Of a stretch of DNA of 64,000 nt, positions 3,662-46,591 are shown piece by piece; position 1 is the stretch's first letter, and every line of letters starts with the position of its first letter. This stretch comes from Octopus vulgaris. Taxonomy: Eukaryota. The notes beneath the pieces are model-generated. The model made no database searches, was not told where the DNA came from, and saw only the letters and a program-made list of their open reading frames with translations. The position numbers and the translations under genes are program-made. The stretch spans positions 10,974,001 to 11,038,000 of the forward strand of contig OX597839.1 in assembly GCA_951406725.2 (NCBI GenBank), in the 5' to 3' direction.

Positions 3662-3748
3662 ATATGCATATATATATATATTGACCATGACTGACTGCTA
3701 AATCCATAAGATTTTTAAAATTCCGTCCTTGCTTCTTTCCTCGTGTTC

Positions 3749-3784
3749 CTTTCTGTTGAAGAGCATAGGCTTGAAACGTAAAAG
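3749..3784 (+). ncRNA. Minimal hammerhead-like motif, CUGUNGA-core family
   Basis: CTTT-CTGTTGA-A-GAGC-ATAG-GCTT-GAA-ACGT-A-AAAG in an element at ~3681-3874 between (TA)n tracts. Confidence 0.6.
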
Positions 3785-3870
3785 ACTTTCTCACCTTCCT
3801 GAGCATCAAACTAATACACCTGCTTGTTGTTTATACACCTGTCTTCGTCTTTTGTTTTTCTGTAAATTTC

Positions 3871-3915
<45 letters not shown>

Positions 3916-4484
3916 GCTGAAGGATTAAAATTAATTAAAGGTGAGGCTATCTTTCCCAGTGCAGAAGCTGGTCGACATGAGTCCAAATACTTGAATGTAC
4001 ATTGGGAGATTGTCTTAGCCTATTTGCCTTCAGATGGTTGATTTCTGTATCTATCATCAGTGTTTTTTGGCAATTTAGAGAAGAGTTTTGAATGTTATTT
4101 CCAGCAAATAGACATACATAGTATGGCCTTTCATTAATTGTAATCCTTCAGCTATCTGATGCTTTGAGGTGGGGTGTGACTTGCAATTGCCTATACTATT
4201 GATTCTGTTATTATCATTTTTAAATTGTTACACTAGATAATAACAGCATTAATGATATCTTTGAATAAGAGAATGCATCTAATATTAATAATATTATTAA
4301 AAACTGATTATTGTATATGCTTATAAATGCAAATATGTATGTATATTTCAGAATATATATATAGGTATTTATGTATATCTATATATGTATGTATATGTAT
4401 ATCTATATATATAAGTATTCAAATGTGTGTATATTTTATTTATTTTATATTTATATTTATTTATAACTTAACATTATGTACTTT

Positions 4485-4613
4485 ATAATCTCTGACGAAG
4501 CCTACAGATAAACCCAAGTACCTCATTTTCATCTACATATCACTTCACTCAACTTGAGTAATAAAGGTAGAATGAGGTATTTTTACCTCTTGGCTGAAAC
4601 AGCTGTAAGTTAT
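4485..4613 (+). ncRNA. Type I hammerhead ribozyme with ~95-nt extended stem II
   Basis: Core CTGACGA (4492-4498); stem II closed by AGCC/GGCT with internal TACCTCATT/AATGAGGTA pairing; GAAA then palindromic stem III ACAGCTGT; GUA site after 4607; stem I ATAA(T)CT/AGTTAT. Confidence 0.75.
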
Positions 4614-5366
4614 TTTCCCAATTTATATTCCTGTTTGTTATTTTATAATAATTACTGGTATCCTTATATATTACTATATTTTATATCTTATATCTTATAT
4701 GTAAAGAATAATATGTTATATGTATATATATTATTGTAATTATCAGTTTAAGTGAATAAATAAATAAGTTAACATAATATAATGTCTAAAAGTTGATGAA
4801 CCACCTATTGATCCCCTCCATTTTCTTATTGTTATATAATATATATACACAAACATGTATCAGTTGCAGCACCATCAGGTTGGCATGGATTGGATGGTTA
4901 GACTGGAGCTGGTAAAGCCAGAAGCTACACTAGGCTCCACTGTCTGTTCTGACATGGTTTCGATGAGTAGATGCTCTTCCTAGTGCCAACCATTCCACTG
5001 ACTGTACTGGGTGCTTTTCATGTGACACTCCACAGAATGTACAAGGTGATTGTATATATATATATTTATACATATATATATAAATATATATGTATGCATA
5101 TATATCTATATCACACCAACCAGACCATCAGATGTTGCTACACATCGCTGGTCACAATATGTTCACATTGTTTTAGCCTTTGAATGACACCACCCCACTG
5201 GCTAAGCGAGCAGGCCAACAGAAGAAAGAGTGGTCCGGGTACAGCAGATCACCACTGCGTGGCACCTTGGGCAAGTGTCTTCTACTATAGCCTCACGCCG
5301 ACCAAAGCCTGTGACCGCGAGTCCGCTGCCCTAACCACTGGGCCATTGCACCTCCACACACACAAG

Positions 5367-5416
<50 letters not shown>

Positions 5417-6916
5417 ATATGTTTGTGTGTCTGTGTTTGTCCCCCCAACATCACTTGACAACCGATGCTGGTGTGTTTACGTCCCCGTAACTTATACATA
5501 TATAGTATGACCGATAGAAAAAGAACTAGGCTTACAAAGAATAGGTCCTGGAGTCGATTTGCTCAACTAAACGCGGTGCTCCAGCATGGCCACAGTATAC
5601 ATATGCACCAGAATATTTATATACATGCATGAATGTATCTATATATGTACATACATATGTACATATATGAATAAAAAAGAAACAAATTCATTAAAAGTTG
5701 TTTTTAAGTTACCGAATATTGTGTCTATATTTGTGACAAGAGCAATCGATACCTTACCTCTGTGACAACTTAGACAACTGTATTTACTTACATGTATCTG
5801 AGAGAGGGCTGGGGGAGCTCCTGGCAGGTTTTGCTATTTATCAAAAGTACAATAAACTACAATGTTATATGAGAATGAGAAAGAAAAGAAAAAGAAAAAG
5901 AGTTGAAATTCAAGGAAAGATTTTGTTTCGCTGCTAAATAGTCTGTTGTGTATTTTTATCTGTGGATAGAAATACTTGTATATGTATGTATGTATGTATG
6001 TATTTGAATGTGTGTGTCTATATGTATGTATGTATGTATGTATGCATTTATGTGTGTGTGTGTATGTATGTATGTATGTATGTATGTATGTATTTGAATG
6101 TGTGTATGTATGTATGTATGCATGTATTTATGTGTGTGTGTATGTATGTGTGTGTATATGTATGGGTGTATGTATGTATGCATTTATGTGTGTGTGTGTA
6201 TGTATGTATGTATGTATGTATGTATTTGAATATGTGTATGTATGTATGTGTGTATATGTATGTATGAGTGTATGTATGTATGTGTGTGTATATGTATGTG
6301 TGTGTATGTATGTATGCATATATGTGTATATGTATGTGTGTGTATGTATGTATGTACGCATGCATGTATTTGAATGTGTGTGCCTGTGTGTGTGTGCCTG
6401 TACACACACACACGTGTGTATATATATAAATATATATATATATATAGAGAGAGAGAGAGGGAGAGAGATAGAGAGAGAGGAAGAGGAAGGCAGACAGAGA
6501 CAAAAGTACACTCTGACAGATAAAGATATGTATATACATACCATACATACACTTATAAAACTAATGTCTGTATATATTAGAGCGAAAGGGGAGAGAAAAG
6601 AGAGAGAGAGAGAGGAGAGGAGTGAGAAAAAGAGAGAGAGGGGGAAGCATCAGTGTATCATATTTACTGTAAATACATTATTGAAAGACAAATTTACTGC
6701 ACTATTCATCCAGAGATAACATCTCTAACCGAAGTGCTTGCTTTGTCTAAAAACACTATATATCAGAGATGAAATCAACTCCAGTAATAACCAACAAGAA
6801 TGTCAGATGCATTTCAGCATCATCGGGCCTTGTCAGTGTCATGTACCCACAACGAGCAACATGCTTAGGTGAGATTTATTGCCCTGAATATAGGAAGACA
6901 GAAAAATATTCACTAG

Positions 6917-7313
6917 TAGGCGTAGGAGTGGCAGTGCGGTAAGTAGCATGCTTATGAACCACATGGTTCCAGGTTCAGTCCCACTGCATGGCATCTTGGG
7001 CAAGCGTCTTCTACTATTTGGGCCGACCAAAGCCTTGTGAGTCGATTTGGTAGACAGAAACTGAAAGAAGCCCATCGTATATATGTATATGTGTGTGTGT
7101 GTGTTTGTGTCTTTGTGTTTGTCCCCCCAACATCGCTTGACAACCGATGCTGGTGTGTTTATGTCCCTGTAACTTAGCAGTTTGGCAAAAGAGACTGATA
7201 GAATAAGTACTAGGGTTACAAAGAATAAGTCCTGGGGTCGATTTGCTTAACTAAAAAGACAGTGCTCCAGCTTGGCCACAGTCAAATGACTGAAACGAGT
7301 AAAGAGTAAAGAG
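6917..7313 (+). mobile_element. SINE family A, full length
   Basis: Same head, core, internal (TG)n and tail as 8464-8882. Confidence 0.85.
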
Positions 7314-7400
7314 TAGTACTGAAAATAGCTTCCCAGCTGAATAAATATCTGTTATAGGCAATAGCCTTTTCACTAGCCGCTGATGAGATTGTGCAGGAAC

Positions 7401-7600
7401 TTGGAAAAGTTTACTGATGAAGCCAATGAGAAGAAATGTGTGAAGTACCAGGAACTGGTGGAAAAGTGCCAGTTCTGCAGCTTGAAAACATATTACGAAC
7501 ATATAGAGGTGGACTGTAGAGGTTTTACAAGATACTTGCACTGCAAAAGGCCTCAATGAAATAGACTATACAGGGGTGTGAAGAAGTGGGCCTTTCAGTA
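7401..7600 (+). mobile_element. Decayed restriction-like endonuclease (REL) C-terminus of an R2/HERO-type non-LTR element
   Basis: Translates LEKFTDEANEKKCVKYQELVEKCQFCSLKTYYEHIEVDCRGF, resembling the EAHERKxxKYxEL...PIEVGCRGF motif. Confidence 0.6.
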
Positions 7601-8463
7601 AGGGGGAAAAGCTGCATAAAATGTACAAAGGGCTAAACATAGAGGGGACAAACAAGGACAGACAAAGGGATTAAGTCGATTATATCGACCTCAGTGTGTA
7701 ACTGGTACTTATTTAATTGACCCTGAAAGGATGAAAAGCAAAGTCGACCTCGGCGGAATTTGAACTCTGAACATAGTGGCAGATGAAATACCATTAAGCA
7801 GTTTGCCTGGCGTGCTAATGTTTCTTATTTCTTTATTGCCCACAAGGGGCTAAACATAGAGGGGACAAATAAGGACAGACAAACGGATTAAGTTGATTAC
7901 ATCGACCCCAGTGTGTAACTGGTACTTAATTTATCGACCCCAAAAGGATGAAAGGCAAAGTCGACCTCGGCAGAATTTGAACTCAGAACATGCGAAATAC
8001 CACTAAGCATTTTGCCTGGCATGCTAACGTTTCTGCCAGCTCGACGCCTTCAGAATCGCTGTTATTTCTAGTGGTCAAGCATCCATCATTGATGAAACCA
8101 GGGAAGGTCAAAATCATGTGATCTAGTGGTCCCGGTACGGAAGATGGCAGGGATTTATCTCCCCACTATTGATCTAAACAAGAGTACATTTTTCACCAAA
8201 AAGCCACTTTGTGAGTTTCCCTTATGGTACATACCACAGTATAGTTTTTTTCTAACAGAACATCTACATTTAAGTGGGGATAAATATCGCCACTTAGTAT
8301 TAATACTGCCTCTGTAGCTAATATATATCTTTCACAAGGCTTTGGTTGGCCTGAGGCTATAGTTTAAGACACTTGCCCAAGGTGCCGCACAGTCAGACCG
8401 AACCCAGAACCATGTAATTGGGAAGCAAGCGTCTTACCACACAGCCACACCTGTGCCTACATA

Positions 8464-11690: not shown

Positions 11691-12186
11691 ACATATACAT
11701 ATGACGGGCTTCTTTCAGTTTCCATCAACCAAATCCACTCACAAGGCTTTGGTCGGCCCAAGGCTATAGTAGAAAACACTTGTCCAAGGTGCCATGCAGT
11801 GGGACTGAACCTGGAACCATGTGGTTAGTAAACAAGCTACTTACCACACAGCCACTCCTGCACCTGTTAAGCATTAGAGTAAGAAATCTAGTTGTTTCTT
11901 GCAATATATATGTCTAAAGCAATGGTATGCAACAAGGGTCCATTGGTCCTTGGGGATCTATATTAGATCCTGTTGTTAAAACTTGGTTATACTTCTACAA
12001 TTTACAAAATATTAGAAAAATTTTCTTTTACACAAATCCTAATAATATTTAATTATCTATTATATAAAATCCGTTCTGTCTGTTTGTGTGTGTGTGTCTT
12101 CTAGGATCTCGGGCAACAAAAGACAAAGACAGGTGGTGTACAAAACTAACAGGTGTATTAGTATAACACTCAGGAATAGAAAAAGT

Positions 12187-12222
12187 CTTTTACGTTTCGA
12201 GCCTACGCTCTTCTACAGAAAG
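12187..12222 (-). ncRNA. Minimal hammerhead-like motif, CUGUNGA-core family
   Basis: Minus strand CTTT-CTGTAGA-A-GAGC-GTAG-GCTC-GAA-ACGT-A-AAAG; host element (~12115-12280) is nearly identical to the 46.4-kb copy. Confidence 0.65.
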
Positions 12223-12632
12223 GGACACAGAAAAAACAAGGAGAGAAAAAAAATGTGTGAAGTGGCTAACGATCTATCATATACATACATATATATATAT
12301 ATGTAGTGGCTAACAATCTATCATATATATATATATATGTGTGTGTGTGTTTATACATACTAGCTTTTAAGCAATTGACACTGAATGGGAAGATCTGCAA
12401 ACAGGTCTCTGTCTTGTTTTCGAGAATTTGTTGCAATTGCTTCCTCCAGAGTCGTATCCCAATGATCATCATATTCGTCACAAAAAATCATTTCCATCCA
12501 TCATCTCCTGTCTTGTAGTGTATATATATATATATATAAGTTCAGCAAAATTTAGATTCAGATGAATATGGTACTTAAGTTAGATGCACCAGAACTTTGT
12601 ATGGTATTATTCATATAAATCCATGGGGTGAT

Positions 12633-13057
12633 TATAATCAAAATAAGCAACAAGAATATCTCCAGTAATTTGGTATGATTGTTTCACGCTACATCATTTT
12701 ATTAAATATTGTAAATATTACAACAGTTTTAAAATGTTGAGCAATCATCAGCGATTTATAGAGGATTCCCATTAATACATAATTTTCATATTAATTGATA
12801 ACATTATAGAGAAGGTAGATATATAGACAAAGATGTTGATTTGAATTTTAAGAACATCTTTGTCTATATATCTACCTTCTCTATAATGTTATCGATTAAT
12901 ATGAAAATTATGTATTAATGGGAAACCTCTATAAATGGCTGATGATTGCTCAACATTTTAAAACTGTTGTAATATTTACAATATTTAATAAAATGATGTA
13001 GCATGAAACGATCATACCAAGTTACCGGAGATATTCTTGTTGCTTATTTTGATTATA
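12633..13057. repeat. Long inverted repeat: 205-bp arms, 15-nt spacer
   Basis: 12633-12837 is the reverse complement of 12853-13057 with only a handful of mismatches. Confidence 0.95.
12936..13019 (+). ncRNA. Degenerate type I hammerhead with extended stem II, in the right arm of a 205-bp inverted repeat (mirror copy on - strand at ~12671-12754)
   Basis: TGG-CTGATGA (12939-12945); stem II TGCT/AGCA and CATTTTA/TAAAATG; GAA-ACGATCAT-A-CCA. Stem III looks like a CpG-decayed ACGATCGT palindrome; stem I TGG/CCA. Confidence 0.6.
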
Positions 13058-13274
13058 TATGTATATATATCATCATCATCATCTTCGTTTAGCGTCCGCT
13101 TTCCATGCTGGCATGGGTTGGACGGTTAAACTGGGGTCTGGGAAGCCAGAAGGCTGCACCAGGCCCAGTCTGATCTGGCAATGTTTCTATGGCTGGATGC
13201 CCTTCCTAACGCCAACCACTCCATGAGTGTAGTGGTTGCTTTTTACGTGCCACCGGCACAGTGTGTATATATAA

Positions 13275-13579: not shown

Positions 13580-14302
13580 GTATACATATACCATAAAAGA
13601 TCAGGAGGTATGAGCGATAAGTATATTTATTTAACCACTTAACATCCTTAAGGTTACACCTGTTTCGCAGCCTTCTTCAGTGTATAATAAATTATGTTTA
13701 CCTGTCTGCATTAATATGCACACTACACATTATACAGTTCAATTGTATATACACAAATGAATGCAGATAAAGAAACATTATGGTTACACCAACAATTCAG
13801 CTCTCCAGGATTTCAGCTGCATAGAACTCTACATTATACTTCTCTGTATTAGATTACCGTGTAGTTTGTTAGCCGAGTTTGTTGGTGGAGCTTTCTGCAA
13901 AAGCCACATGATTCTATGAATCTATATATTACACTTCAAATATGTATATGTATATAATTATGTCGGATGGCTGCAACAAGTAGAAAAGCACTAAATCAGC
14001 TCAGAGAGTAAAGATAATGAATGCTATAATAAAAAACTTAAAAAGCAACGGATAAATGTTCTTGTTGTCAGCTTCAGAACTGGTGAAATAAATTAATGTT
14101 TCGACCAGGAAACTCTTGCTTGTTGTATTTAATAAGAATTGTGGTTTTTATCATACATACATACATATATACATACTTATAAACATACATACATACATAC
14201 GTGCATACATACATGCATACATACATGCATACATACGTACATACATACATACATACAGACAGACATATATACATACAAGCATACATGCATATATACATAC
14301 AT

Positions 14303-17025: not shown

Positions 17026-17320
17026 GCTTGCTGTTTCATGAAGTTTTATATAAATTCTATCCACTAATGGAGTTCAACATGCTTATCCGGCTTAAAGGAT
17101 AACCCTGCTGTTTGGTGGCATATGGTAGCCATTAACAGTATAGGGACTTTGAAATACACTGTTATATGGTTATATTGAATAAATAATACACATGGTTCTG
17201 GGTTCATTCCCACTGCATGGCACCTTGGGCAAGTGTCTTCTACTATAGCCTCAGGTCGACCAAAGCCTTGTGAGTGGATTTGGTAGACAGAAACTAAAAA
17301 AGAAACCCGTCGTATATATG

Positions 17321-17351
<31 letters not shown>

Positions 17352-17830
17352 TTGTATGTATATGTTTGTGTGTGTGTGTTTGTCCCCCCAACATCGCTTG
17401 ACAACCGATGCTGGTGTGTTTATGTCCCCCATGACTTAGCAGTTCGGCAAAAGATACTGATAGAATAAGTACTAGGTTTTCAAAGAATAAGGCTTGACTA
17501 AAAGCAGTGCTCCAGCATGGCCACAGTCAAATGACTGAAACGAGTAAAAGAGTAAAAGAGTAAAGATTAAAGTGCTTCAGCCCAGAGCTGCAGCCATGCT
17601 GATAAATACCAGTTCATAGTAACAAAGTTATTTTCTAAATTCTTTATTATTTTTCAAAATTTACTGAAACATGTTTACTGAAATGATTAAAACTGCATTA
17701 AAACTTTTCATTAAAATTTCATGTTAATTTATGTTCCAAACACCAGATTAATAATGACAAAATTGATGAAATTTTTCAGTGTATTTCTTTTGAAATACAC
17801 TTCCTTTGCAGTGTGTTTCAACAGGGTTAA

Positions 17831-18040
17831 CCCTTTAGTGTTTAAACCGGCCAAAATATTCTACCTATTTTATGTTCAAACTAGTCAGATATGGTCATTC
17901 ATAGCTACCTTATTGTGTCATTTTAAAAATAAGCAATCACATCATTGAAATCTCAAAACCATGAAATGATACAAGATTAATTTTACATGGTGTGAATACA
18001 TAAGCTTTACATTCGACAGAATAATCTCAATGCTAAAGAG
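17831..18040. mobile_element. piggyBac-type MITE, older inverted copy of 62843-63063
   Basis: TTAA-CCCTTTAG...CTAAAGAG-TTAA, with internal similarity in reverse orientation. Confidence 0.7.
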
Positions 18041-18595
18041 TTAAAATATTGGTTTTGAATTTTGACTATTTCAGGGGTGCTGAAAAGTCAATTACATCAA
18101 CTCCCAGTGCTCAACTGGTACTTATTTTATCGACCCTGAAAGGATGAAAGGCAAAGTCAACCTTAGTGAAATTTGAACTCAGAACGTAAAGACAGACTAA
18201 ATGCTGCCAAGCATTTCCCCCCAGCATTCTAACAGTTCTTTCAGCTTACCACCTTAGAAAAGGCTAAAAAATATTGACAGTTAATTCCAAATTAGTTTCC
18301 AAAATCTGTAGTGGACTTCAGTTTCTGGGTGATAAGACAGGGTTTTTCCAGCAATGTCGGTGGAGCTATGAGAATTATTGCTCCAAACAAAAACATTAAG
18401 AACAAATAATGAAATATGAAGCTTCATTGATAAAAGATAGACATGTAGACATAGTTTACTAAACTTTTAATATACTGCTTTAATATTAATTTCAATATTT
18501 TCTATATATAAATATGTTAATGTAATAGAAACAATTGTCGGCTTTGTAAGGTGAATTCCACAATTAAAGATCTCATTTTCTCTATAGCTATTTTT

Positions 18596-18633
<38 letters not shown>

Positions 18634-19130
18634 CTCTTTTACTTGTTTCAGTCATTTGACTGTGACCATGCTGGAGCACTGCTTTTAGTCAAGCAAATCT
18701 ACCCCAGGACTTATTTTTTGTAAGCCTAGTACTTATTCTATTGGTTTCTTATGCCGAACCGCTAAGTTACGGGGACGTAAACACACCAACATCGGTTGTC
18801 AAGCGATGTAGGTGGGGACAAACACAGACACAAACATATATCATCATTGTTTAACGTCCGTTTTCCATGCTAGCATGAATTGGACGGTTTTGACTGAGGA
18901 CTGGCAAGCCAGATGGCTGCACCAGACTCCAGTCTTCATTTGGCAGAGTTTCTACAGCTAGATGCCCTTCCTAACGGCAACCACTCCGAGAGTGTAGTGA
19001 GTGCTTTTTACGTGCCACCTGCACGGGGGCCAGTCAGGCGGTACTGGCAATGACCTCGCTCGAATCTTTTTACACGTGCCACCAACACAGGTGCCAGTGA
19101 AGTGACATTGGTAATGATCACGCTCGAATA

Positions 19131-19177
<47 letters not shown>

Positions 19178-19920
19178 CACACACATATATACAACGAGTT
19201 TCTTTCAGTTTCCGTCTACCAAATCCACTCACAAGGATTTGGTTGGCCCGAGGCTATAGTAGAAGACACTTGCCCAAGGTGCCATATATATATATATATA
19301 CATATATATATAAATATGCCATTACCATCATCATCATCTTTTTCCCATCTTGGCATGGGTTGGATAGCTTGACATCTCCACTTTTCTGGTATGGTTTTTA
19401 TGACTGGATGCCCTTCCTAACACCACTCTCGTTGAACAGCATACATATATATAGTCTCTCTCTGTGTCACACACACACACACATATATTCATGCATACAC
19501 ATATATATTTACACACCATATATATATATATATTCATACACATGTAGAATATTATCAAGTAATGGCCAGTTTCATGAGTAGATGATGAAAGACTAGTTGC
19601 ATGGTTGCAGACTTCATGATCCCACGCCAACAGGACTCTCCCAGTGCGAAGGTGGGGAAACTTGCAGGATTAGAAAGCTAAAACTGTCGAAGGCAGATGA
19701 GCTATTTGAGAGCCAACATTCATATCAGTAGGAGGAGATGGGTAGCGCTAGGATTATCAAACCTAGTGAAACGGTAGAATAGAAGTTTCATATTCAATTC
19801 TCTAATTGATCAGTTGGGACCCAGAAGGCCCAGGAGCAAGAGAATTGGAAAACATTGGTAAAAATAATCCAGGTGCACAAATGACAGAAATATAAATGTA
19901 TGTATGTGTTTGTGTGTGTG

Positions 19921-23175: not shown

Positions 23176-23480
23176 ATGGAATCGAAGGAGTCTAAGGCCC
23201 AGCAACGCACGCAAAGAAACAGGCGCCGTATGGTGAGAGGTCAGCAGCAACTGCAGGAGAAACAACACCAAGCGGCCCCGATGGCGGCGGCTACGGCGGC
23301 GGCAACGGCGGCGGGAGGCAGCGGCGGCGAGGACGACGATGACGGCGCGGCCGCGGCGGACGACGAGTGTCCAGCCAGAACCAGCAAGGATAGCAATAAT
23401 AGCCACAACAACAACAACAACAATAACAACAGCAACAACAACAACAACAGTAATAATAGCAACAACAATAATAATGCTAA

Positions 23481-23512
<32 letters not shown>

Positions 23513-23673
23513 CCACTACTAATAATAATAATAGTAATAATAATAATAATAAGTCAAAACCGAAACCACCTCCGCCGTCCCAGCGCCGGAGGCGAACCAG
23601 TTCCAATTCATTTGACGAGGATATTATTGATGGATTTGCCATCATCAGCTTCAAAACACTTCAGGATATGGAG
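23176..23673 (+). CDS. AUTS2: First coding exon (166 codons) of an AUTS2/FBRSL1/fibrosin (Drosophila tay) family gene
   Basis: ATG at 23176; basic N-terminus (QRTQRNRRR) and [36 protein letters not shown], matching the recalled human AUTS2 motif [32 protein letters not shown]. Ends at a phase-0 donor GAG|GTAAGG (GT at 23674). GC/CpG-rich relative to the window. The symbol denotes the family ortholog, not a specific paralog. Confidence 0.9.
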
Positions 23674-23971
23674 GTAAGGGAACCTTTCTATATATTTTCT
23701 TTTCATGTGTTGTTGTATGGGTTTAAGTTTGTATATATAATATGGTTTTTTTCCTATATGTTCTCTGTATGTGCTGGGTTTTTGTTTTTGGAAGTTGAGC
23801 TATTTTACTCCCATCGAGGGACCCAAACACACGTGTGTGTATGTATGTGCAATGTGTTTGTTTGTATGTTTGTGCAAAGACTTTTGAATCTGTGTCTGTT
23901 GACGATCATTGTAGTCAACTACTATATCTGTATATTTGTATGTACCTATCTGTGTGTGTATGTATATATAT

Positions 23972-26589: not shown

Positions 26590-26842
26590 GAGTATAATGT
26601 GTATGAATATGTATATATGTATAGTATAAATGTATGCATACGTATATGTATAGGTATATCTATGTATAATATAAATGTGTGCATATATATATATATATAA
26701 TACACACATGTTGATAATGTATAGGTATATATATATATATATATATATATAAAGTTAATCCAAAGAAGAAAACACAAAAAAACGTGAGGACGTGGAACAA
26801 ATAAAGTATTATTGGACGCTCAGGAAAGAAGGGAAGAAGGAG

Positions 26843-26878
26843 GTTTTAACGTTTCGAGCGGAGCTCTTCGTCGGAAAC
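26843..26878 (-). ncRNA. Minimal hammerhead-like motif, related subfamily
   Basis: Minus strand GTTT-CCGACGA-A-GAGC-TCC-GCTC-GAA-ACGTT-A-AAAC; stem I GTTT/AAAC. Shares the flanking CGCTCAGGAA motif with the CUGUNGA family. Confidence 0.55.
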
Positions 26879-29051
26879 ATAGGAGAAGGGAAGACAGAGG
26901 AAAAAAAATCGCCAACGGTACACACGAGGTCAATACTTACTGGCTTGGGTGTGGGGTTCAAAATTTCTCTTCCCGACTCCATGGCTATAGGATAAATTAA
27001 GTCCAACCGTGCAAGCACCTCAGATAAGACGTCCTCAACCAATTAAAACCTTATTAGTAGTGATCGTAAAGGGACATTGGTAAAAACCTTGTTACATATA
27101 TATATATCTATACCTATAAATATATACACATCAGTCATTAGACTGCGGTCATGCTGGGGCACTTGCCTTGAAGGGTTTAGTCAAACAATTCGAACCCAAT
27201 ACTTTTTCTCTCTCTTTTTTTTTTAAAGCCTGGTACTTATTCTGCCGATCTCTTTTTGATGAACCACTAACTAGGTTTAGGGAACGTAAACAAACCAACA
27301 CCGGTTGTCAAGAGTTGTTGGTAGGGACAAATAGAAACACACACACACACACACACACATAGATGTGCATACATAGCTATATATGATGAGCTTCCTTCAA
27401 TTTCCATCTACTAAATCCACTCACAAGGTTTTACTAGACCTGGAAGGCTGTAGTCGAAGACATTGGCCTAAAGCGCAGCACCGTGGGACTGAACCTGAGA
27501 CTGCATAGTTGGGGGACACGAGGTGAAGGTTTGTTTACATTTACATTTCTGACAATCACTGAGCTACACACATATGGTGACATTTTTGTCATTTCCTTTG
27601 TAAATGACTTTGCTTCATCAGAGAAATCAGAGAGTCTTTATCTGAGAGACAGGTAAAGGTTTAGTAGTGTTGGGATTGACATCCGGCTGTATAAGAACAT
27701 TGCAATGATTTATCCATGTAACTTATACTAGCAAGGCGTATATATATATATATATATATATATGCAAGCACACACACATATAATGCAGGAATGGCAATGT
27801 GCTTAAGAAGTTCATATTGCAATCACTTATTTTGGGTTAAGTCTGGCAGCTTGGGCAAGTGTCTTCAACTTAAGATTCAGACTGATCAAAACCTTGAGTG
27901 AATTTGGTAGACAAACTAAAAGAAGCCTAACACACACGATATACATATACGTATACAGCATCTCAAGACAAAATCCAATGTTGTGGCTTTCTTAAGTATA
28001 TCCACATTAAGTATGACTGACAGATTGCTATTCTAAACTGCTACTGCTTCTGTTGCTAATAATGAAAATAAATGTGTCTCCTTGTCTTCACTGCATAGTG
28101 TCCTTCGTTTCCGATCTTCCATGAAAGCATGTCTGGCCGTGGGGAAATGAAGTAGATTCTTGGAATAGGTGAGGTTTGCTGACAGGAATAACATCTGCCT
28201 GTGGAAAATCTACCTCAATGAATTTTGTTTAACCCATGCAAGCATGGATATGTGGCTGTTAAAATGTTCCTGATGAGATATGTACATATATTCATATCTA
28301 CCTATCTATATGTGTGTCTAGGTATAGCTGTGTTGTTAAGAGCATTGTGCAGCCACCTGGTTTTGGGTTCAATCTCACTTTATGGCACTTTGGACAAGTG
28401 CTTTTCACGATAACCTCTAGCTGACCAAAACCTTATGAGTAGATTTGGTAGATTGAGATTGGAAGAAGATCATTGTGTATGTGTATATATCTTCTATGTT
28501 TTATTTGTTTCAATCATTAGACTGTGGCCATGCTGGGGCACCAGCTTGAAGAATTTTAGTCGAACTAAAGCCTGGTACTTATTCTGTTGGTTTCTTTTGC
28601 AGAACTGCTAAGTTACAAGGATGTGAATACACCACTTTTGGTTGTCAAGCAGTGGTGGGGGACAAACACAGACACAAGGACACAGTTTTAGTTTCCATCT
28701 ACCAAATCCATTCACTTGGTCGACCTGAGGCTATAGTAGAAGACACTTGCCCTAGGTGTCACACAATGGGACTGAACCCAGAACCATGTATTTGGGAAGC
28801 AAACCTCTTACCACACAGCCATGCCTGTGCCTGTTAGCGCGCCGGGCGAAATGCTTAGCGGTATTTCGTCTGTCGTTATGTTCTGAGTTCAAATTCCGCC
28901 GAGGTCAACTTTGCCTTTCATCCTTTTGGGGTCGATAAATTAAGTACCAGTTTCGCACTGGGGGCGATATAATCGACTCAATCCCTTCGTCTGTCCTTGT
29001 TTGTTCCCTCTATGTTTAGCCCCTTCTGGGCAGTGAAGAAATATGTATATG

Positions 29052-29086
<35 letters not shown>

Positions 29087-31278
29087 ATAAATCTGTATTT
29101 CCATCTCCTCCTCTTTAAGTGGAACCGTCATATTGGTACTGTTGTTTGTTGCAGTTGTGCTGTTTGTGATTGAAGAACAAAGAGAAATATTACCTTGCTG
29201 AGGAACAGTTGAGTGTTGGTGAAAGGAAGAGCATCCGCCCATAGAATATGTTTCATTGAGTTGTTTAGCATGTATTGCAATCATGGAAGAGTGTCTGTTA
29301 AAATGATGATGATAATTGAATGTATATATGTGTGTATATATATATATATTTGTGTATATGTACAAAGTTGTAATACTTACATTACCACATAGCAGGATGT
29401 AATAGAAAATAACACAGTTGGGAGGTGAACTTAAACACAGCCATATCTATATCAATTTGAGATGTGCATGTGTGTGTATATGTGTATCTATGCACATATG
29501 TACATATGTTATCATTCAAAACCCACTTTTCCATGTTTGTATGGATGGGATGGAGTTTAATGCAGCAGATTTTTCTGCAGACAAATGTCCCTCATGTCAC
29601 CGACCCTCACCTGTTTCCAAGCAAGGTAATATTTTTTTGCTGCCAGACATGATTTCACAGAATACTGGAAATAGACGACACTCCTTGTGTAATAGTGAAA
29701 CTAACTCACTCACAACTGTCATGCGATGTCAAGACAAGAACACACAAATCTCCACTCACATATACACAATACTCATTTATGCTTGTGTCTCTCTATATAT
29801 ATATATCATCATCGTTTAACGTCCGTTTTCCGTGCTAGCACAGATTGGACAGTTCGACCCGGGTCTGGGAAGCCAGGAGGTTGCACCAGGCTCCAGTCTA
29901 ATCTGGCAGTTTTTCTACAGCTGGATGCCCTTCCTAACGCCGACCACTCCGCGAGTGTAGTGGGTGCTTTTTACGTGCCACCACCACAGGTGCCAGTGGA
30001 GTCTGGCTGTGGCCACGATCGGTTGTCGCTTTTACCGTGCCACCAGCATGGAAGCCAGTCAAGGCGGCACTGGCATCGGCCACGTTCGGATGGTGCTTTT
30101 TACATGCCACCGGCACAGAAGCCAGTCGAGGCAGCGCTGGCATATATATATATATCTTATTTCTTCCATCTTTTTACTTGTTTCAGTTATCAGACTGTGG
30201 TCATGCTGGAGCTCTGCAATGCGTTTTATTTGAACATATCAATCCCAATACTTTTATTCTTCATTCTCTTTTGCTGAACTGCTAAGTTATGGGGGTGTAA
30301 ACAGACCAACACCAGGTGTTAAGCGGTGGTGGAGGACAAACTCATACACAAGGACACATATAAATACATATACATATGTATATACAATAGTCTTCTTTCA
30401 ATTTCCATCTACCAAATTCACTTTGGACAGCCCAAAACTATAGTAGAAGATGTTTGCCAAGGTGCTACCAGTGGGATTGAACCATGAACCATATGGTTAG
30501 GAAGCAAACTTCTTACCACACAGCCATGCCTGCACCTACACACTTATATATGAATGGGTGCAGGTGTGGCTGTGTGGTTAAAAAGCTTGTTTTCCAGTGA
30601 TATGGTCTAGGGGTTCAGTTCTACTGCACAGTACCTTGGGCAAGTATCTTTTGCAATAATCCCCTGGCCAACCGAAGCCTTGTAAATGGACTTGGTAGAT
30701 GGAATTGAAAGAAGCACATTGTGTATGTGTGTGTGTGTGTACATCGTGGCCATACAAGTGATGTTTGTTTACAGTCTTCTGTGAAAAATATCTTTAACCA
30801 TGGGGAAGTATTACCTTGTTGGGAAACAGGTGTAAGTTGGCAACAGGAAAGGCTCCAGGCCATAGAAAATCTGTCTAACAATTTCCGTCTGACTCATGCA
30901 AGCAAGCGGACTTTAATGATGATTATACATGCACACACGCACACACACACATGTATATCTATTTCTTTATTACCCACAAGGAGCTAAACATAGAGGGAAC
31001 AAACAAGGACAGACATAGGTATTAAGTCAATTACATAGACCCCAGTGCGTAACTGGTACTTAATTTATCGACCCCGAAAGGATGAAAAGCAAAGTCGACC
31101 TTGGCGGAATTCAAACTCAGAACGTAGCGGCAGACAAAATACGGCTCCGCATTTTGCCTGGCGTGCTAACATTTCTGCCAGCTCGCTGCCTTATAAAAAT
31201 CAAAATTTTTTTACGGAAAGCAACGATCTCTCTCAGAAACATAAATTGTACCTTTTAATTTCTAAAACAGAAATGCCG

Positions 31279-35331: not shown

Positions 35332-36117
35332 GCGCGCACACACGTTTCTTTTAACCAAATTCACTCACAAGTTATTGGTCAGGTCCGAGTTTCCGTGCAG
35401 TGGGACTGAACCCGAAACCACGTGGTTGCAAAGCGGTCTTCCTAACCACACAGCCATGCATGCACGTGTATAAGTGTGTGTGTGCGTGCATTACATCGTA
35501 TATATATTATGTGTATGTGTATATGCAATTGTTGCGATTTCGTCTGTTTGCTTCTATATAAGTAGTATAACTCTTTAAGCAGTAATTTAAGTGTTGAATA
35601 TTTGTTGTATGGTATAGTGTCTGGTGTATATATATCCCGTATACACAGATGGGCTTTTGTTGGCTTTGTCAAAGAACAGCTACACTAAATTGAAATATAT
35701 GCATGTAAAGATGTGAATATGCATATGTAAAACATGTAGTTATAAGTACTTATATACATACACACATACATATATATGTATGCTATATAAACATAAATTT
35801 GTAAATATGCGCTTTCACGTACATACATAAAATTTATGTGTGATTGCCTATGTACACATATATACCCTATTTCTTTATTACCCACAAGGGGCTAAACATA
35901 GAGGGGACAAACAAAGATAGACATAGGTATTAAGTCGATTACATCGACTCCAGTGCGTAACTGGTACTTAATTTATCGACCCCCGAAAGGATGAAAGGCA
36001 AAGTCGACCTCGGCGGAATTCGAACTCCGAACGTACCGTCATATAGAGGTTTGTGGTGCAAACAGGAAAATTATATATACATATATAAGTTTTTATTAAT
36101 AATGGGCAGAAGTTTTA

Positions 36118-36161
36118 GTGACTCAGGGTCCGGGAGTTTCGTGTATTGACACTTACCAAAC
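36118..36161 (-). ncRNA. Hammerhead variant (U3-A8 core), 5'-truncated by a (CA)n tract
   Basis: Minus strand GT-TTGGTAA-GTGT-CAAT-ACAC-GAA-ACTC-CCGGACCCT-GAGT-C-AC: perfect stems II and III, GUC site, only 2 bp of stem I left. A more decayed relative lies at ~2957-3010 (-). Confidence 0.55.
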
Positions 36162-38075: not shown

Positions 38076-38144
38076 TCGGTAGTATAGTGGTAAGTGTCCC
38101 CGCCTGTCACGCGGGAGACCGGAGTTCGATTCCCCGCCGGGGAG
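38076..38144 (+). pseudogene. tRNA-Asp(GTC) copy lacking the first 3 nt
   Basis: TCGGTAGTATAGTGGTAAGTGTCCCCGCCTGTCACGCGGGAGACCGGAGTTCGATTCCCCGCCGGGGAG. The 5' TCC is replaced by (TA)n; one T-stem mismatch; A and B boxes retained. Confidence 0.85.
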
Positions 38145-41368: not shown

Positions 41369-42002
41369 TTATATGTCTGTATATATATATATAAATTATA
41401 GATATTATTACAATACAATAGTACTATTTTCCAGCAAAATAAAGCACCATAAAGGTAGAGTTATAAATAGGAAATAGTGGCACATATTTCTACCTGTCTT
41501 TCTTAACTGTCTCCCTATCTGTCAATCTTACTATCTATATCACCTTTTGTCTCTTCATGTTCACATCTGTCCACATTCCATTCCATAATTGTTTATGTTC
41601 ACATCTGTCACTCACCCTATATATCTACCTGGCCCTTTCTACACCATTTCTAGCCCTAAAATTTTCCCCTCTAGCAACCTGTATTATCATCATCATCATC
41701 ATCATCCCTGCTTTATTTACTGCTTTTAAGAATAAATGCAACAACTTGCCTTGGACATATTTTTACTCTGTGTACAAACCTACAGACAATCTTTATAAAT
41801 GTTGCTTATGATCTAAGAGAGAGACTGAATATTTATTTATTGACTGAAAGATGGAAGGATAGACAAGAACCTTTCCATCTACATCGAAAATCTTGTTTTA
41901 TATGCAGTTTATCCACAGGCATATGCATGTGTATGTATGCCTCTATGTATATATACATGCATTTGTATATATATGTATATATACATGCCTATATGTATAT
42001 AT

Positions 42003-42181
42003 CAGTACTTTTCAAACTTTTTGCTGAAGCGGAACCCCAAGGAAACATTCCACTGGCTCGAGGATCCCCTGTGCAATAATTTAATTGTCTTATGCACATA
42101 TATCTGCACAGGAGAATTAAAAATTACTGTCGATTTTAGCAGTTTTGTAACTTCTTGCGGAACCCTGGTTGAAAACCACTG
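42003..42181. mobile_element. hAT-type MITE with 8-bp TSD
   Basis: Termini CAGTACTTTTCAA..TTGAAAACCACTG; GTATATAT duplicated at 41995-42002 and 42182-42189. Confidence 0.75.
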
Positions 42182-43190
42182 GTATATATACATGCATTTT
42201 GTGTGTGTGCGTGCGTATAAACGTTACTTCATTTAGTGTTTTCTAATACATCTTCAAAATTTGGTGTAATGTTGATATTTAAAAATAAGTACTGTGCATG
42301 CTTTATTGGACAGTGGTCCTCTTAATTATTTGAGATCAATTACACACACACACACGCACATCTGCTTTCCATGCAGGCATGTGTTCAAGGTTTGCCACTG
42401 TACAAATTTCTTATTGCCTTTCTAAATAGGCAAAAACACTTCATTTTCAATTGTTTGGTGCGGTTTCTTCAACAGGATAACCTTCTTAAAATAAGGACCT
42501 TGGAGTGTACTAGGTATTATCATTTCCTTGACACAACTGAAGTGTCCTTCTCTAACTGCGTGATGCCTCTGTTAATCGCTTTACACACTGTTTTGGGTGC
42601 ATTTTATTAAAGTGCCAGTACTAGGGATGTTGCCTTCTTTGCTGCAAGACTAAAGTCAGCTCTCTACTCAACATTGTCTTAGTACAACAAGGCAAATGTT
42701 TACCAAAAGGGTGGAAAGAAGAGCAGTGATAGGGAGGGAACCAAAATGAGTGTGGGAAAGGAAAAGGAGTATGAAACACAATGGAAGAAAGAAAGACGGT
42801 GATAGGCAGTTACATCTTGGTTGTTGGTGTGGAAGTTGAATCAAGGAAAACAGCCCAAGTGATAGGATGGGAGGAAGAGGAAGTGATAGGGGTTGGACAA
42901 GGTGATAGCAGAGGGAGTAATGGAAGTGATGAATATTGACATGGATGACAGAGAAGGGATTATTCAGAGAGAGAGAGAGAGAGAGAGAGATTAATTCAAG
43001 GAGAGATGTAGGTGATGATGTCAATAAAAAGTGACATGGGGTAGAGAGAGTAATGGTAGTGGGTATTGTATATGGAAAGATTCAAAACTATCTTCTGTTA
43101 TACAGATGGCATAGCACAGACTAGATATAAGGGTAATCAGGAGCTCCAGGGCAGCAGATGGAGATTTAACTGGAAAATATACATGTGTAG

Positions 43191-43262
<72 letters not shown>

Positions 43263-43892
43263 CAGAGGCATTGCTGTGGGGTAAGAAGCTTTCTTCGTAA
43301 CCACATGGTTCCTGGTTCAGTCCCACTGTGTGGCATCTGGAGCAACTGTCTTCTATAGCCTAAGTTACAGTGACATAAATAAACCAACACCAGTTGTCAA
43401 GTGAGCTTCTTTCTGTTTCTGTCTACCAATAGTTCTACTTGCAGGCTTTGGTCAACCCAGGGTTATAGAAGAAATTTGTTCATGGTACTACACTGGGATT
43501 AAACCCAGAGAATCTTACAACACAGCCACACCTGTGCCTGCAGAGGGAGAGAAGTGATGCTGTTTATGAATATTGATAATAGGGCTCAGCACAGACAAAC
43601 CTATACATGTAAATGCGATTTATAAAGTAAATGGGATCTCTGTTGGTTTTGCCAATGAATTTTCACTTATTCAATTAAGAGCTACATGCTCAATGCATTA
43701 GGGTGAAAGTGGCCGAGTATTCCATATGTATGTGTACCCTCATCATAATTCTAAGGTGGAATCAGTATGACCGAGCTGGACATTCTGATTTCGGGTGCAA
43801 TGCAAGTCATAAGCTTCCCCACAGTTTCCGTCACCTGAATTTTACTCGCAAGACTTGGGATTAGAACTGAGACTGTGGTCAAATACACATAT

Positions 43893-44060
43893 ACTGGAGT
43901 GTCATCCCCTAATGTTGCAACCATGTCAGCCCCCTTGGGGCTAAACCCTTTTCCTGCAGGTACTTGATAACACCATAATAACAAATTTTGTTGATTTTCA
44001 AGAGAAGTTGCTACTAGTTACATCTGAAGTCTTCTTTGGGCAGTAAGATGTCAGTTTACC
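43893..44060 (-). mobile_element. Decayed mariner transposase N-terminal fragment
   Basis: Frameshifted GVIKYLQEKGLAP / ADMVATLGDDTP, typical of the mariner HTH region. Confidence 0.55.
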
Positions 44061-44286
44061 TGCTCTTTACTCTTTTACTCGTTTCAGTCGTTTGACTGTG
44101 GCCATGCTGGAGCACCGCCTTTAGTCGAGCAAATCGACCCCAGGACTTATTCTTTGGAAGCCTAGTACTTATTCTATCGGTCTCTTTTGCCGAACTGCTA
44201 AGTTACGGGGACGTAAACACACCAGCATCGGTTGTCAAGCAGTGTTTGGGGGACAAACAGACATACAAACATATACATACATACAT

Positions 44287-44340
<54 letters not shown>

Positions 44341-44414
44341 CTACTCACACACACATCAGCATTGGTTGTCAAGCGATGTTGGGGGGGACAAACAGACATA
44401 CAAACATATACATT

Positions 44415-44467
<53 letters not shown>

Positions 44468-44777
44468 TCACACACACATTAGCATTGGTTGTCAAGCGAT
44501 GTTGGGGGGACAAACAGACATACAAACATATACATACATATATATATATACATACACACACACACACGCATACACTGATTTTCTTATACACATACACACA
44601 GGCTGACATAAATTTAAGCTTGCCCACATGTGTGTATACACGCTTGCCTCCTTTCATATATACACACACTTGTGTACCCCAGTTCAACCGGGTTGCTGTT
44701 ATATCTCCTTCCTTCAGCCTCTTTCTTATAGTAATCCAGACATTTTTTTCTCTCATTCTCCATTCCCCCCCTTATCC

Positions 44778-44813
44778 CTTTCTGTCGAAGAGCATAGGCT
44801 TGAAACGTCAAAG
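44778..44813 (+). ncRNA. Minimal hammerhead-like motif, CUGUNGA-core family
   Basis: CTTT-CTGTCGA-A-GAGC-ATAG-GCTT-GAA-ACGT-C-AAAG: stem I CTTT/AAAG, stem II, palindromic ACGT, GUC site. Confidence 0.65.
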
Positions 44814-45430
44814 ACTGTTCCATTCTTCCTAAGCGTCAAACTGTTTTAATATACCTGTTTGTTGTTCACTCACGTATCTTTGTTTCTTGTTTTCTGTACA
44901 TTTGAAACACTGTGTGAGGTGCGTGTGTGTGTGTGTAAGTATCTATGTAAAAAGTGTTTTTTATTGTTTTTGTTTTTTTCGTGAGGTGGGTATGGTCTAT
45001 GAGTGAGTATCTGGGAACATTCTGGATTGGCAAAGAATTGCTTGTAGTTATGGGTGTGGTAGAGATAGCAGACAGAAAAGTGGTTGGAGAGAGAGAGAGA
45101 GAATTTAGGTGAAGGCTACATTCGGAAAAAAGAAGTGGAGGTATTTTGAAAGAAATGGAGTATTTTTTTTTGTTCTTTTTACTTGTCCCAGGTCAGCGAC
45201 CGCGGAAAGCAGTTAGTCAGTATTAGTATTCGTATATACAGCTTTACACGCGCACCCTTACTTACACACATACACACACTCTTTTATATTATGAATAGTG
45301 ACAGTTATTTATAAGTTTTGGCGTGTTATATCAATTAGGTTGATACATTTTTTATATATGCACTTACGTCATATATATGTATACACATGTAAATACATAT
45401 ACTTGTGTGTGTATGTTGTATGAGTGTATA

Positions 45431-45483
<53 letters not shown>

Positions 45484-45564
45484 AACACACTTTTTACAAT
45501 GTTAAGTGACAGTTGTAAGTTTCACCGCTGAAACTCAATCACTGCTTCTTAACATTCATTTAGA

Positions 45565-45611
<47 letters not shown>

Positions 45612-45696
45612 AGGTCCCGGGTTGAGTCGGGGTTAACCACAGTAAATAAGGTACTCAATACATAGCAGAGTAAATTAATTTATTTTATAGAAGGAC

Positions 45697-45743
45697 CTTC
45701 TACAGGACTAGAACTGTTTCATTCAAATGAAATCATCAGGAAG
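45697..45743 (-). ncRNA. Type I hammerhead ribozyme, mirror copy in the same palindrome
   Basis: Minus strand reads CTTC-CTGATGA-TTTCATTTGAAT-GAAACAG-TTCTAGTC-CTGTA-GAAG; stem I CTTC/GAAG. Confidence 0.8.
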
Positions 45744-45793
45744 CTTCCTGATGATTTCATTTGAATGAAACAGTTCTAGTCCTGTAGAAGCTT
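45741..45793 (+). ncRNA. Type I hammerhead ribozyme, canonical core
   Basis: Stem I AAGCTTC/GAAGCTT; core CTGATGA (45748-45754); weak stem II TTC-ATTT-GAA; GAAA (45767-45770); stem III ACAG/CTGT; GUA cleavage triplet after 45786. Confidence 0.85.
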
Positions 45794-45802
45794 CTTCTAT
45801 AC

Positions 45803-45833
<31 letters not shown>

Positions 45834-46408
45834 CATTACACGCTCACACACACATACGTGTGTAAATCTACTTTTTTGTGACATGGATTCTTAGACGATC
45901 TGTATAATACACACGCACAAACACAATTTGCATACGCACTCACATATGACTTGTACCAGCTTGGAAAGCGAACGACGATGATGATAGGGATACTAATAGG
46001 AATGTATGTATGTGTGTGTGTGTGTGTAATATATATATTATATATGAAAGGCGGCGAGCTGGCAGAAACGTTAGCACGCCGGGCGAAATGCGTAGCCGTA
46101 TTTCGTCTGTCGCTACGTTCTGAGTTCAAATTCCGCCGAGGTCGACTTTGCCTTTCATCCTTTCGGGGGGGGGGGTGATAAATTAAGTACCAGTAACGCA
46201 CTGGGGTCGATGTAATCGACTTAATCCGTGTGTCTGTCCTTGTTTGTCCCCTCTGTGTTTAACCCCTTGTGGGTAGTAAAGAAATATATAATATATATTA
46301 TATATATATAAATATAAAGGGAAAGTTTACGAAAATAAACAAAAGACGAAGACAGGTGGAGTACAAACAAACAAATGTATTAGTATAGCGCTCAGGAATA
46401 GAAAAAGT

Positions 46409-46444
46409 CTTTTACGTTTCGAGCCTACGCTCTTCGACAGAAAG
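46409..46444 (-). ncRNA. Minimal hammerhead-like motif, CUGUNGA-core family
   Basis: Minus strand CTTT-CTGTCGA-A-GAGC-GTAG-GCTC-GAA-ACGT-A-AAAG, inside a ~200-bp element (~46315-46520) flanked by (TA)n. Confidence 0.65.
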
Positions 46445-46517
46445 GGACACAGAAAAAACAAGGAGAGAAAAATATGCGTGTAGGAGCTAACCATCTATCA
46501 TGGCGTCCTGACTTCAG

Positions 46518-46591
<74 letters not shown>

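What the first reader, a model, noticed from the sequence alone, without database searches (positions are those of the whole stretch)
3681..46520. Dispersed set of short hammerhead-ribozyme elements inserted in (TA)n microsatellites
Seen: hammerhead-like motifs at 3749(+), 4485(+), ~12671(-)/12936(+), 12187(-), 26843(-), 36118(-), 44778(+), 45697(-)/45741(+) and 46409(-), plus decayed ones at ~2957(-) and ~13652(-). They fall into several unrelated sequence families that share only the type I fold. They sit in ~150-500-bp segments with no recognisable ORF, mostly abutting (TA)n/(CA)n. Established: type I hammerheads, often minimal with a palindromic stem III that cleaves as a dimer, are hallmarks of Penelope-like element pLTRs and animal non-LTR retrozymes. 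Inference: a diverse, microsatellite-targeting ribozyme-retroelement fauna at roughly one motif per 5-6 kb here. I cannot tell whether these families have been described.
Basis: partly seen in the sequence, partly recalled or inferred. Interest (0 to 1): 0.85.

Follow-up and report, generated by a model that had tools for sequence, protein, structure and literature searches.

The report
Penelope retrotransposon ends carrying hammerhead ribozymes
These scattered hammerhead-shaped sequences belong to seven repeat families, three of which trace to Penelope-like jumping genes that insert into TA repeats (a known arrangement), but the commonest family, likely still mobile, has a fixed change at a normally invariant catalytic base that is predicted to slow or silence RNA cutting.

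Summary
The 13 motifs are real and fall into seven genomic repeat families. Most are not independent ribozyme elements or tandem retrozymes. Three families trace by contiguous sequence to Penelope-like element (PLE) genes. Family A (3753, 12218, 44782, 46440) is Neptune-like, with uninterrupted RT–GIY-YIG frames of 1,009–1,200 codons in pLTR–ORF–pLTR tandems. Families B (45.7 kb) and D (12.8 kb) are Hydra-like. E is a short relative of A; no ORF was found for C, F or G. Fixed 3' ends in (TA)n, 5' truncation, head-to-head inversions and one-sided tails are published PLE hallmarks, and a Hydra PLE with a hammerhead is already in print for an octopus. Density elsewhere in the genome is lower (50 in 800 kb sampled). 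The twist: all 27 hammerheads flanking the long family-A ORFs read CUGU-N-GA (A6→U), and E reads CCGA (U4→C), while the rest of the fold is kept. My searches found no A6U PLE hammerhead, but one key paper was unavailable. Cleavage is untested. The scan earlier reported a U3–A8 PLE hammerhead in another genome.

The parts
2880..3005 (-). Family F remnant, decayed (core replaced by a T run, G12 lost)
   Evidence: boundaries approximate
3681..3874 (+). Family A (older subfamily) pLTR 3' end; core CUGUUGA at 3753, GAAA 3773, predicted cut after A3780; ends in (TA)n
4262..4860 (+). Family C element; canonical CUGACGA at 4492, long hairpin in loop II, GAAA 4596, palindromic ACAGCUGU, weak stem I; no ORF found
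   Evidence: boundaries from blastn, may include repeat flank
12115..12280 (-). Family A pLTR 3' end; core CUGUAGA at 12218, predicted cut after A12191
12538..12845 (-). Family D (Hydra-like PLE) long arm with tail; core CUGAUGA at 12751, stem III decayed
12846..13058 (+). Family D inverted short arm; core CUGAUGA at 12939, stem III partly decayed
13583..13775 (-). Family G remnant; the CUGAUGA box of the family is deleted in this copy, GAAA at 13666 remains
26752..26932 (-). Family E short element (about 190 nt, fixed 5' end, homologous to the A pLTR end); core CCGACGA (U4C) at 26874, GUU triplet
36041..36160 (-). Family F remnant; U3–A8 core with A6G (UUGGUAA at 36159), 4-bp stem III, predicted cut after C36120
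44741..44892 (+). Family A (divergent subfamily) pLTR end; core CUGUCGA at 44782, GUC triplet
45612..45743 (-). Family B (Hydra-like PLE) long arm with tail; core CUGAUGA at 45739, U·U at 10.1–11.1, 4-bp stem III
45744..45811 (+). Family B inverted short arm; core CUGAUGA at 45748; junction at the palindrome AAGCTT
46315..46520 (-). Family A pLTR 3' end between two (TA)n runs; core CUGUCGA at 46440, predicted cut after A46413

Best explanation
The motifs are the hammerheads at the 3' ends of 5'-truncated Penelope-like retrotransposon copies in families A, B and D, and likely also in C, E, F and G, most likely left behind when reverse transcription primed at a cut in (TA)n stopped early. Steps: (1) A tandem pLTR–ORF–pLTR master encodes RT plus GIY-YIG endonuclease (shown for A; pieces shown for B and D). 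(2) The endonuclease would nick (TA)n, and RT would start at a fixed site about 70–200 nt downstream of the hammerhead; the fixed 3' ends are shown, the mechanism is inferred from PMC11167929. (3) Most cDNAs stop within about 100 nt upstream of the hammerhead, so the hammerhead is what nearly every stub keeps (shown for A). (4) Extension from both nicked strands, with two start sites, would give the head-to-head pairs with a one-sided tail at 12.8 kb and 45.7 kb (architecture shown, mechanism inferred). (5) In the master RNA the hammerhead would cut only as a dimer or with the element's protein; solo stubs are predicted to be largely inert. In family A the fixed A6U change, and in E the U4C change, are predicted to slow cutting further, so the fold is likely kept as an attenuated or structural element.
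For: Family A: 30 loci share one 3' end and vary at the 5' end; one runs into RT/GIY-YIG sequence. In 14 fetched regions there are 16 stop-free frames of 587–1,200 codons (a frame of 1,009–1,200 in each), 96.3–99.9% identical to the reference copy over 2.1 kb (12 of 13 at 98.9% or more), with hammerheads 4.4–4.6 kb apart flanking the ORF and a three-unit tandem; Pfam RVT_1 E=1.3e-7. B: locus L375 has RT, a CxCX5C linker and a GIY-YIG domain contiguous with the 3' UTR and hammerhead. D: the same domain order in L242 and L243. (TA)3 directly after the family 3' end: A 26/30, B 18/20, C 21/25, D 28/29, E 27/30, F 11/19, against 7–10% of random positions. Inverted partner: B 16/22 and D 6/29 tailed arms; in all of these the second arm lacks the tail. 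B and D hammerheads follow the published Hydra pattern CUGANGAU…UGAAA. A and E follow the published minimal consensus (extra base after A9, G10.1–C11.1, GAAA-CG-UH) except at one core base. In the A clade, N7 and H17, the positions the consensus leaves free, vary most within the motif (N7 majority 41%, H17 69%), while U6 holds at 87% among 39 tail-selected rows.
Against: No ORF link was found for C (8 extended loci), E (none of 25 unselected copies visibly extends past a boundary about 62 nt upstream of the core), F or G (nearby GIY-YIG hits belonged to separate insertions). Covariation in the A/E alignment is modest: 8 doubly changed cells, 11/500 shuffles as high, mostly one stem I pair (C–G↔G–C/G–U); percent paired is not significant (42/500), and stem II columns were fixed by my search motif. 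Pfam GIY-YIG is below its cut-off (E=0.007). The tail flanking the A hammerhead is as conserved as the core, so selection on the fold within clade A is not proven. No cleavage or expression data.
Confidence: 0.88

Rival explanations
1. Some families (E above all, perhaps C, F, G and the fixed-junction B palindrome) are non-autonomous short elements with their own master copies, mobilised in trans by PLE proteins, rather than random truncations of full-length PLEs.
For: E copies pile up at one 5' boundary and none extends into an ORF. B has an identical AAG|CTT junction in 28 of 28 copies found with the palindromic query and 6 of 16 inverted copies found with a one-arm query.
Against: The 28/28 figure is biased by the query. 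With the one-arm query 10 of 16 junctions differ, and B has ORF-linked copies. A palindrome just upstream of the core could simply be a junction hotspot. Only the top 40 of 407 E candidates were scored.
Confidence: 0.45
2. The elements are dispersed monomers of non-LTR retrozymes (tandem, ORF-free hammerhead repeats that replicate through circular RNA).
For: The genome does hold such an array: a 359-bp tandem unit with a canonical hammerhead in L277. A 2026 preprint derives retrozymes from PLE pLTRs.
Against: No window motif lies in a tandem unit. Three families link to PLE ORFs. One-sided tails and inversions are PLE features.
Confidence: 0.06
3. The family A and E motifs are dead hammerheads: a loss-of-function change was fixed in a master element and the rest of the motif persists only by descent, with no selection on the fold.
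For: A natural A6C variant cleaves at under 0.1 per min and U4C lowers activity in vitro (PMC3088659). Hammerhead mutants did not affect PLE insertion in vitro (PMC11167929). Naiads thrive without canonical hammerheads (PMC8557442). The predicted fold of the young A motif pairs the core's UGUU with AACG, an inactive shape.
Against: Across A/E subfamilies whose flanks differ visibly, stems I–II, GAAA and ACGU stay put while N7, H17 and loop II change, and H17 is G in 1 of 141 clustered motifs. One stem I pair covaries.
Confidence: 0.35
4. The motifs are chance matches in AT-rich repeats.
For: No Rfam hammerhead hit at gathering score; folding z-scores of the short A and E motifs are near zero.
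Against: 5 against 0.075 expected in the window; 40 against 0–3 in 800 kb; position at PLE 3' ends; agreement with published PLE hammerhead alignments.
Confidence: 0.01

Closest known systems
Minimal hammerheads (min-HHR) of metazoan PLE pLTRs (Cervera & De la Peña 2014, PMC4209133)
   Same: Type I fold, short stem I, extra base after A9, G10.1–C11.1, palindromic positions 15.2–16.2, thousands of mostly solo copies, opposite-strand pairs 100–700 bp apart, U3–A8 variant (family F).
   Different: Family A has U at position 6 and family E has C at position 4. None of the 44 alignment rows I saw in part 2 of the supplement has either change (part 1 not read).
Hydra-clade PLEs, including Hydra-1_Obim (Craig et al. 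2021, PMC8557442)
   Same: B and D: CxCX5C linker, no cysteines between GIY and YIG, CxxC and CxH around the conserved E and N, GLYRDD in the RT, (TA)n target, hammerhead pattern CUGANGAU…UGAAA.
   Different: Different families: the listed Hydra-1_oBim hammerhead matches neither B nor D. D has a long hairpin in loop II; B has a frequent head-to-head junction just upstream of the core.
Neptune-clade PLEs (for example Neptune1_Ap in the PMC8557442 alignment)
   Same: Family A: DKG motif, C-terminal GIY-YIG with CCHH, CX4CxxC linker, tandem pLTRs, microsatellite bias. By eye its RT N-terminal blocks are closest to Neptune1_Ap among the rows shown.
   Different: Non-canonical hammerhead core. Clade placement was not tested by a tree.
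Non-LTR retrozymes (preprint 10.64898/2026.07.22.740005)
   Same: Type I hammerhead, no ORF in the local copy, probable PLE ancestry.
   Different: Defined by tandem units; the window's copies are solo or inverted pairs.

Membership tests
Type I minimal hammerhead of PLEs | CUGANGA core box (or U3–A8 covariant) | tested here: met
   Families B, C, D in the window and G, F as family majority; 5 of 13 window motifs have it intact
Type I minimal hammerhead of PLEs | CUGANGA core box in families A and E | tested here: not met
   A has CUGUNGA (27 of 27 ORF-flanking copies); E has CCGACGA in 38 of 48 clustered copies
Type I minimal hammerhead of PLEs | GAAA followed by a palindromic or paired stem III and a UH triplet | tested here: met
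   9 of 13 window motifs; broken in both D copies, 2957 and 13652
Type I minimal hammerhead of PLEs | Covarying stems I and II | tested here: inconclusive
   One clearly covarying stem I pair; 11/500 shuffles as high; stem II constrained by the search motif
Type I minimal hammerhead of PLEs | Self-cleavage as dimer or with protein help | not testable with these tools
   No raw RNA reads were listed
Penelope-like element (EN+) | Single ORF with RT and C-terminal GIY-YIG upstream of the hammerhead | tested here: met
   A; B and D as interrupted frames
Penelope-like element (EN+) | ORF link for families C, E, F, G | tested here: inconclusive
   None found in the loci held; searches scored only the top 40 candidates each
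Penelope-like element (EN+) | Tandem pLTRs, 5' truncation, inverted 5' copy, one-sided tail | tested here: met
   Tandems and truncation in A; inversion plus tail in B and D, one case in C
Neptune clade (family A) | CX2-5CxxC linker and CCHH finger in the endonuclease | tested here: met
   [quoted passage not shown] Shared with Nematis, so not diagnostic alone
Neptune clade (family A) | RT phylogeny | not tested
   No reference sequences were available to the tree tools; resemblance by eye only
Hydra clade (families B, D) | CxCX5C linker, no CCHH, CxxC and CxH around E and N, (TA)n target | tested here: met
   against the definition
Hydra clade (families B, D) | N-terminal RWK and DKT motifs | not tested
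   The N-terminal part was not in the stretches held
Non-LTR retrozyme | At least two tandem hammerhead-bearing units without an ORF | tested here: not met
   No such array in the window

The most novel reading that the evidence does not exclude
The dominant and apparently still active PLE family of this genome transposes with a hammerhead whose A6 is fixed as U, and a short sister family carries U4C instead, while the rest of the fold is kept. The hammerhead fold would then be retained as a deliberately slowed, protein-dependent or non-cutting RNA element, giving a natural test of whether PLE ribozymes need to cleave at all.
Probability: 0.3. Interest if true: 0.6.

Novelty: new variant of a known kind. 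Interest (0 to 1): 0.37.

Why it matters
Whether PLE hammerheads need to cut is open: mutants did not affect insertion in vitro (PMC11167929), and Naiads lack them (PMC8557442). A young family with near-identical intact ORFs and a fixed A6U core, next to canonical-core relatives in the same genome, allows a direct comparison. It also shows that canonical descriptors miss most hammerhead-like copies in this genome: among 54 unselected A/E-type motifs only 5 begin CUGA. The dispersed, microsatellite-embedded pattern itself is ordinary PLE debris.

Tried and rejected
A canonical descriptor with uninterrupted stems found nothing. Rfam found no hammerhead; its e-value list was dominated by microRNA models matching TA/CA repeats. 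A search for PLE ORFs inside the window by tblastn was empty. GIY-YIG hits near C (L110), F (L209), E (L174) and D (L144) were read as separate insertions. Extending C upstream by about 900 nt in 8 loci reached no ORF. The (TA)n-adjacency test for G was uninformative because my terminal motif matched inside the element (6/30). Expression: no RNA holder listed, and only contigs were available, so cut ends and circular junctions could not be looked for. Lünse et al. 2017 on small PLE hammerhead variants was not held, so A6U may be described there. Literature searches for A6U and for CUGUNGA-type words (20 of 34 listed) showed no listed paper on a natural A6U hammerhead. No tree was built. An alternative register that restores CUGA in family A was considered and rejected, since it needs insertions on both sides of stem II.
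Full report
Setting. The window is G000:C26:10974001-11038000 of a 2.8-Gb genome in 227 contigs, rich in TA/CA microsatellites. From size, about 30 large contigs and repeat content I infer an octopus; this is an inference, not a tool result.

Observation. All 13 sites hold a hammerhead-like motif or its remains. A strict canonical scan found none. Rfam found none at gathering score. A minimal-hammerhead descriptor that allows one core change and an extra base after A9 found 5 against 0.075 expected (maximum 2 in 40 shuffles); its loosest form found 9 against 2.9, two of them chance-like. Own-genome searches with seven window queries each filled the tool's scoring limit or came close (36–40 candidates scored; first-look candidates 1643, 36, 1369, 2708, 1017, 105 and 886; a palindromic B query gave 492). 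They define families A (3753, 12218, 44782, 46440), B (45739/45748), C (4492), D (12751/12939), E (26874), F (36159 and about 2990) and G (about 13.7 kb). Family HMMs recover these 13 sites and no others in the window; this is circular for the seed copies.

Family anatomy. A: stem I 4–5 bp, CUGU-N-GA, extra A, GAGC/GCUC, GAAA-CG-UH. E: the same with CCGACGA and a 3-nt loop; its tail aligns with that of A. B and D: canonical core, U·U at the base of stem II, 4-bp or palindromic stem III. C and G: canonical core, long loop II, palindromic ACAGCUGU. F: UUGAUAA (U3–A8) in 10 of 24 scored copies. Several window copies are decayed: both D arms, both F copies, and G, whose core box is deleted.

Link to PLEs. 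One A copy runs 5' into GIY-YIG and RT sequence. A protein search gave 12,683 candidates, 150 scored, with open frames up to 1,200 codons. I fetched 14 regions chosen for long frames. Each has a frame of 1,009–1,200 codons; those printed in full show DKG, YIDD, a CX4CxxC linker and a CCHH-type GIY-YIG. In 11 of 14 regions hammerheads lie on both sides of the ORF, and one region is a three-unit tandem. Over 2.1 kb, 12 of 13 are 98.9–99.9% identical to the reference and one is 96.3%, which suggests recent activity. Pfam: RVT_1 above cut-off, GIY-YIG below it. All 27 hammerheads flanking these ORFs have U6 (26 CUGUUGA, 1 CUGUCGA). D continues upstream into a CxCX5C linker and a Hydra-type endonuclease in two loci, with a GLYRDD RT piece in one. 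B does so in L375, with further pieces in L377 and L386, out of 28 oriented loci. For C, 8 extended loci gave no ORF. E copies stop at a common 5' boundary about 62 nt upstream of the core or shorter (25 unselected copies; larger values come from TA repeats in the query). F and G gave no link.

Insertion pattern. (TA)3 follows the family 3' end in 26/30 (A), 18/20 (B), 21/25 (C), 28/29 (D), 27/30 (E) and 11/19 (F) loci in which the end was found, against 7–10% at random; each set includes the window's own copy, and the G test failed. An inverted partner lies upstream in 16/22 B, 6/29 D, 1/26 C, 1/31 A and 1/31 E tailed arms, and the partner always lacks the tail. These are the structures described for PLEs (PMC8557442, passages). 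The two-start-site explanation of the tail comes from PMC11167929 (parts 1–2 of 4 read).

Abundance. In 80 evenly chosen 10-kb stretches the seven HMMs gave 50 non-overlapping hits (A 25, E 9, B 7, F 7, D 2), 26 in 600 kb of large contigs and 24 in 200 kb of small ones. That extrapolates to the order of 100,000 copies. A generic descriptor gave 40 hits against 0–3 in 8 shuffles and showed further families. The window is richer than average.

Is the fold under selection? In 25 hand-picked diverse A/E motifs, 86% of cells pair; one stem I pair switches C–G↔G–C/G–U; 11 of 500 shuffles reach the 8 doubly changed cells, 42 of 500 the pairing level. This is modest, and stem II was fixed by the search motif. 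Among 39 rows selected by the tail alone (including a few truncated or unrelated ones), N7 and H17 are the most variable motif positions, but the tail is as conserved as the core. Of 54 unselected A/E motifs, 25 begin CUGU, 17 CCGA and 5 CUGA, so canonical relatives exist and the two changes look derived (inference).

Mechanism. Best reading: stubs of target-primed reverse transcription by several PLE families. The hammerhead sits just inside the fixed 3' end, so even the shortest stubs keep it. Solo minimal motifs showed no cleavage and dimers little in PMC4209133 (parts 1–2 of 4 read, supplement part 2 of 3). The anole PLE hammerhead cut only with protein and was dispensable for insertion in vitro. 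A natural A6C cut at under 0.1 per min, and U4C lowers activity in vitro yet supports viroid infection (PMC3088659, passages). A6U and U4C here are therefore predicted to attenuate cutting. The predicted fold of the young A motif pairs UGUU of the core with AACG, an inactive shape (prediction only). The B pair folds into one long hairpin, which would also sequester both ribozymes.

What is known. PLE hammerheads, the U3–A8 and U·U variants and (TA)n targeting are published. Hydra-1_Obim, with a canonical hammerhead and (TA)n preference, is listed for an octopus (PMC8557442 supplement). A 2026 repeat annotation of Octopus vulgaris lists 31 recently active Penelope-like families and has no occurrence of 'ribozyme' or 'hammerhead' in its main text (PMC13282606, passages). 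The retrozyme preprint was read in part 1 of 5. Searches for A6U and for CUGUNGA-type words listed no paper on a natural A6U hammerhead (listings only). Lünse et al. 2017 could not be read, and one supplement file of PMC4209133 was not searchable; either may bear on novelty.

Verdict. A real feature of a known kind: PLE 3' ends with hammerheads. The one possibly new element is the fixed A6U core of a young, abundant, Neptune-like family and the U4C core of its short relative. Cleavage is untested.

Noticed in passing
window 23177-23673 (+): A coding exon from ATG to a GT donor at 23674, with Gln/Ala/Asn runs, ending in DGFAIISFKTLQDME. It matched five proteins, four unnamed and one a hypothetical bivalve protein. 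The motif resembles the first exon of AUTS2/fibrosin-like genes (recalled, untested). If so, the motifs from 26.8 kb on probably lie in its intron.
   Followed up: partly
window 3102-3175 (+) and 38077-38139 (+): Two tRNA-like sequences above the Rfam gathering score, between microsatellites; tRNA genes or SINE heads.
   Followed up: no
L277:3060-4900 (+) and about 2300-2700 (-): Tandem 359-bp unit with a canonical type I hammerhead (6-bp stem I, CCGG loop, GUC), five units on one strand and two on the other: a typical non-LTR retrozyme array elsewhere in the genome.
   Followed up: partly
L110, about 370 nt upstream of the family C query match: A further PLE family with a GIY-YIG frame followed by a U3–A8 hammerhead (UUGAAAA core).
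   Followed up: no
random loci L279, L282, L295, L301, L302, L314, L317, L322, L326, L343, L349, L355: About ten further hammerhead families with canonical or near-canonical cores and palindromic stem III, absent from the window.
   Followed up: no
L357+L358 (G000:C6:117388001-117408000): Head-to-tail array of three near-identical 4.47-kb family-A PLE units plus a truncated one, flanked by long (TA)n.
   Followed up: partly
window, many places (e.g. 17200-19300, 27100-31200, 50000-63800): Several other abundant short interspersed repeat families without hammerheads (self-comparison).
   Followed up: no
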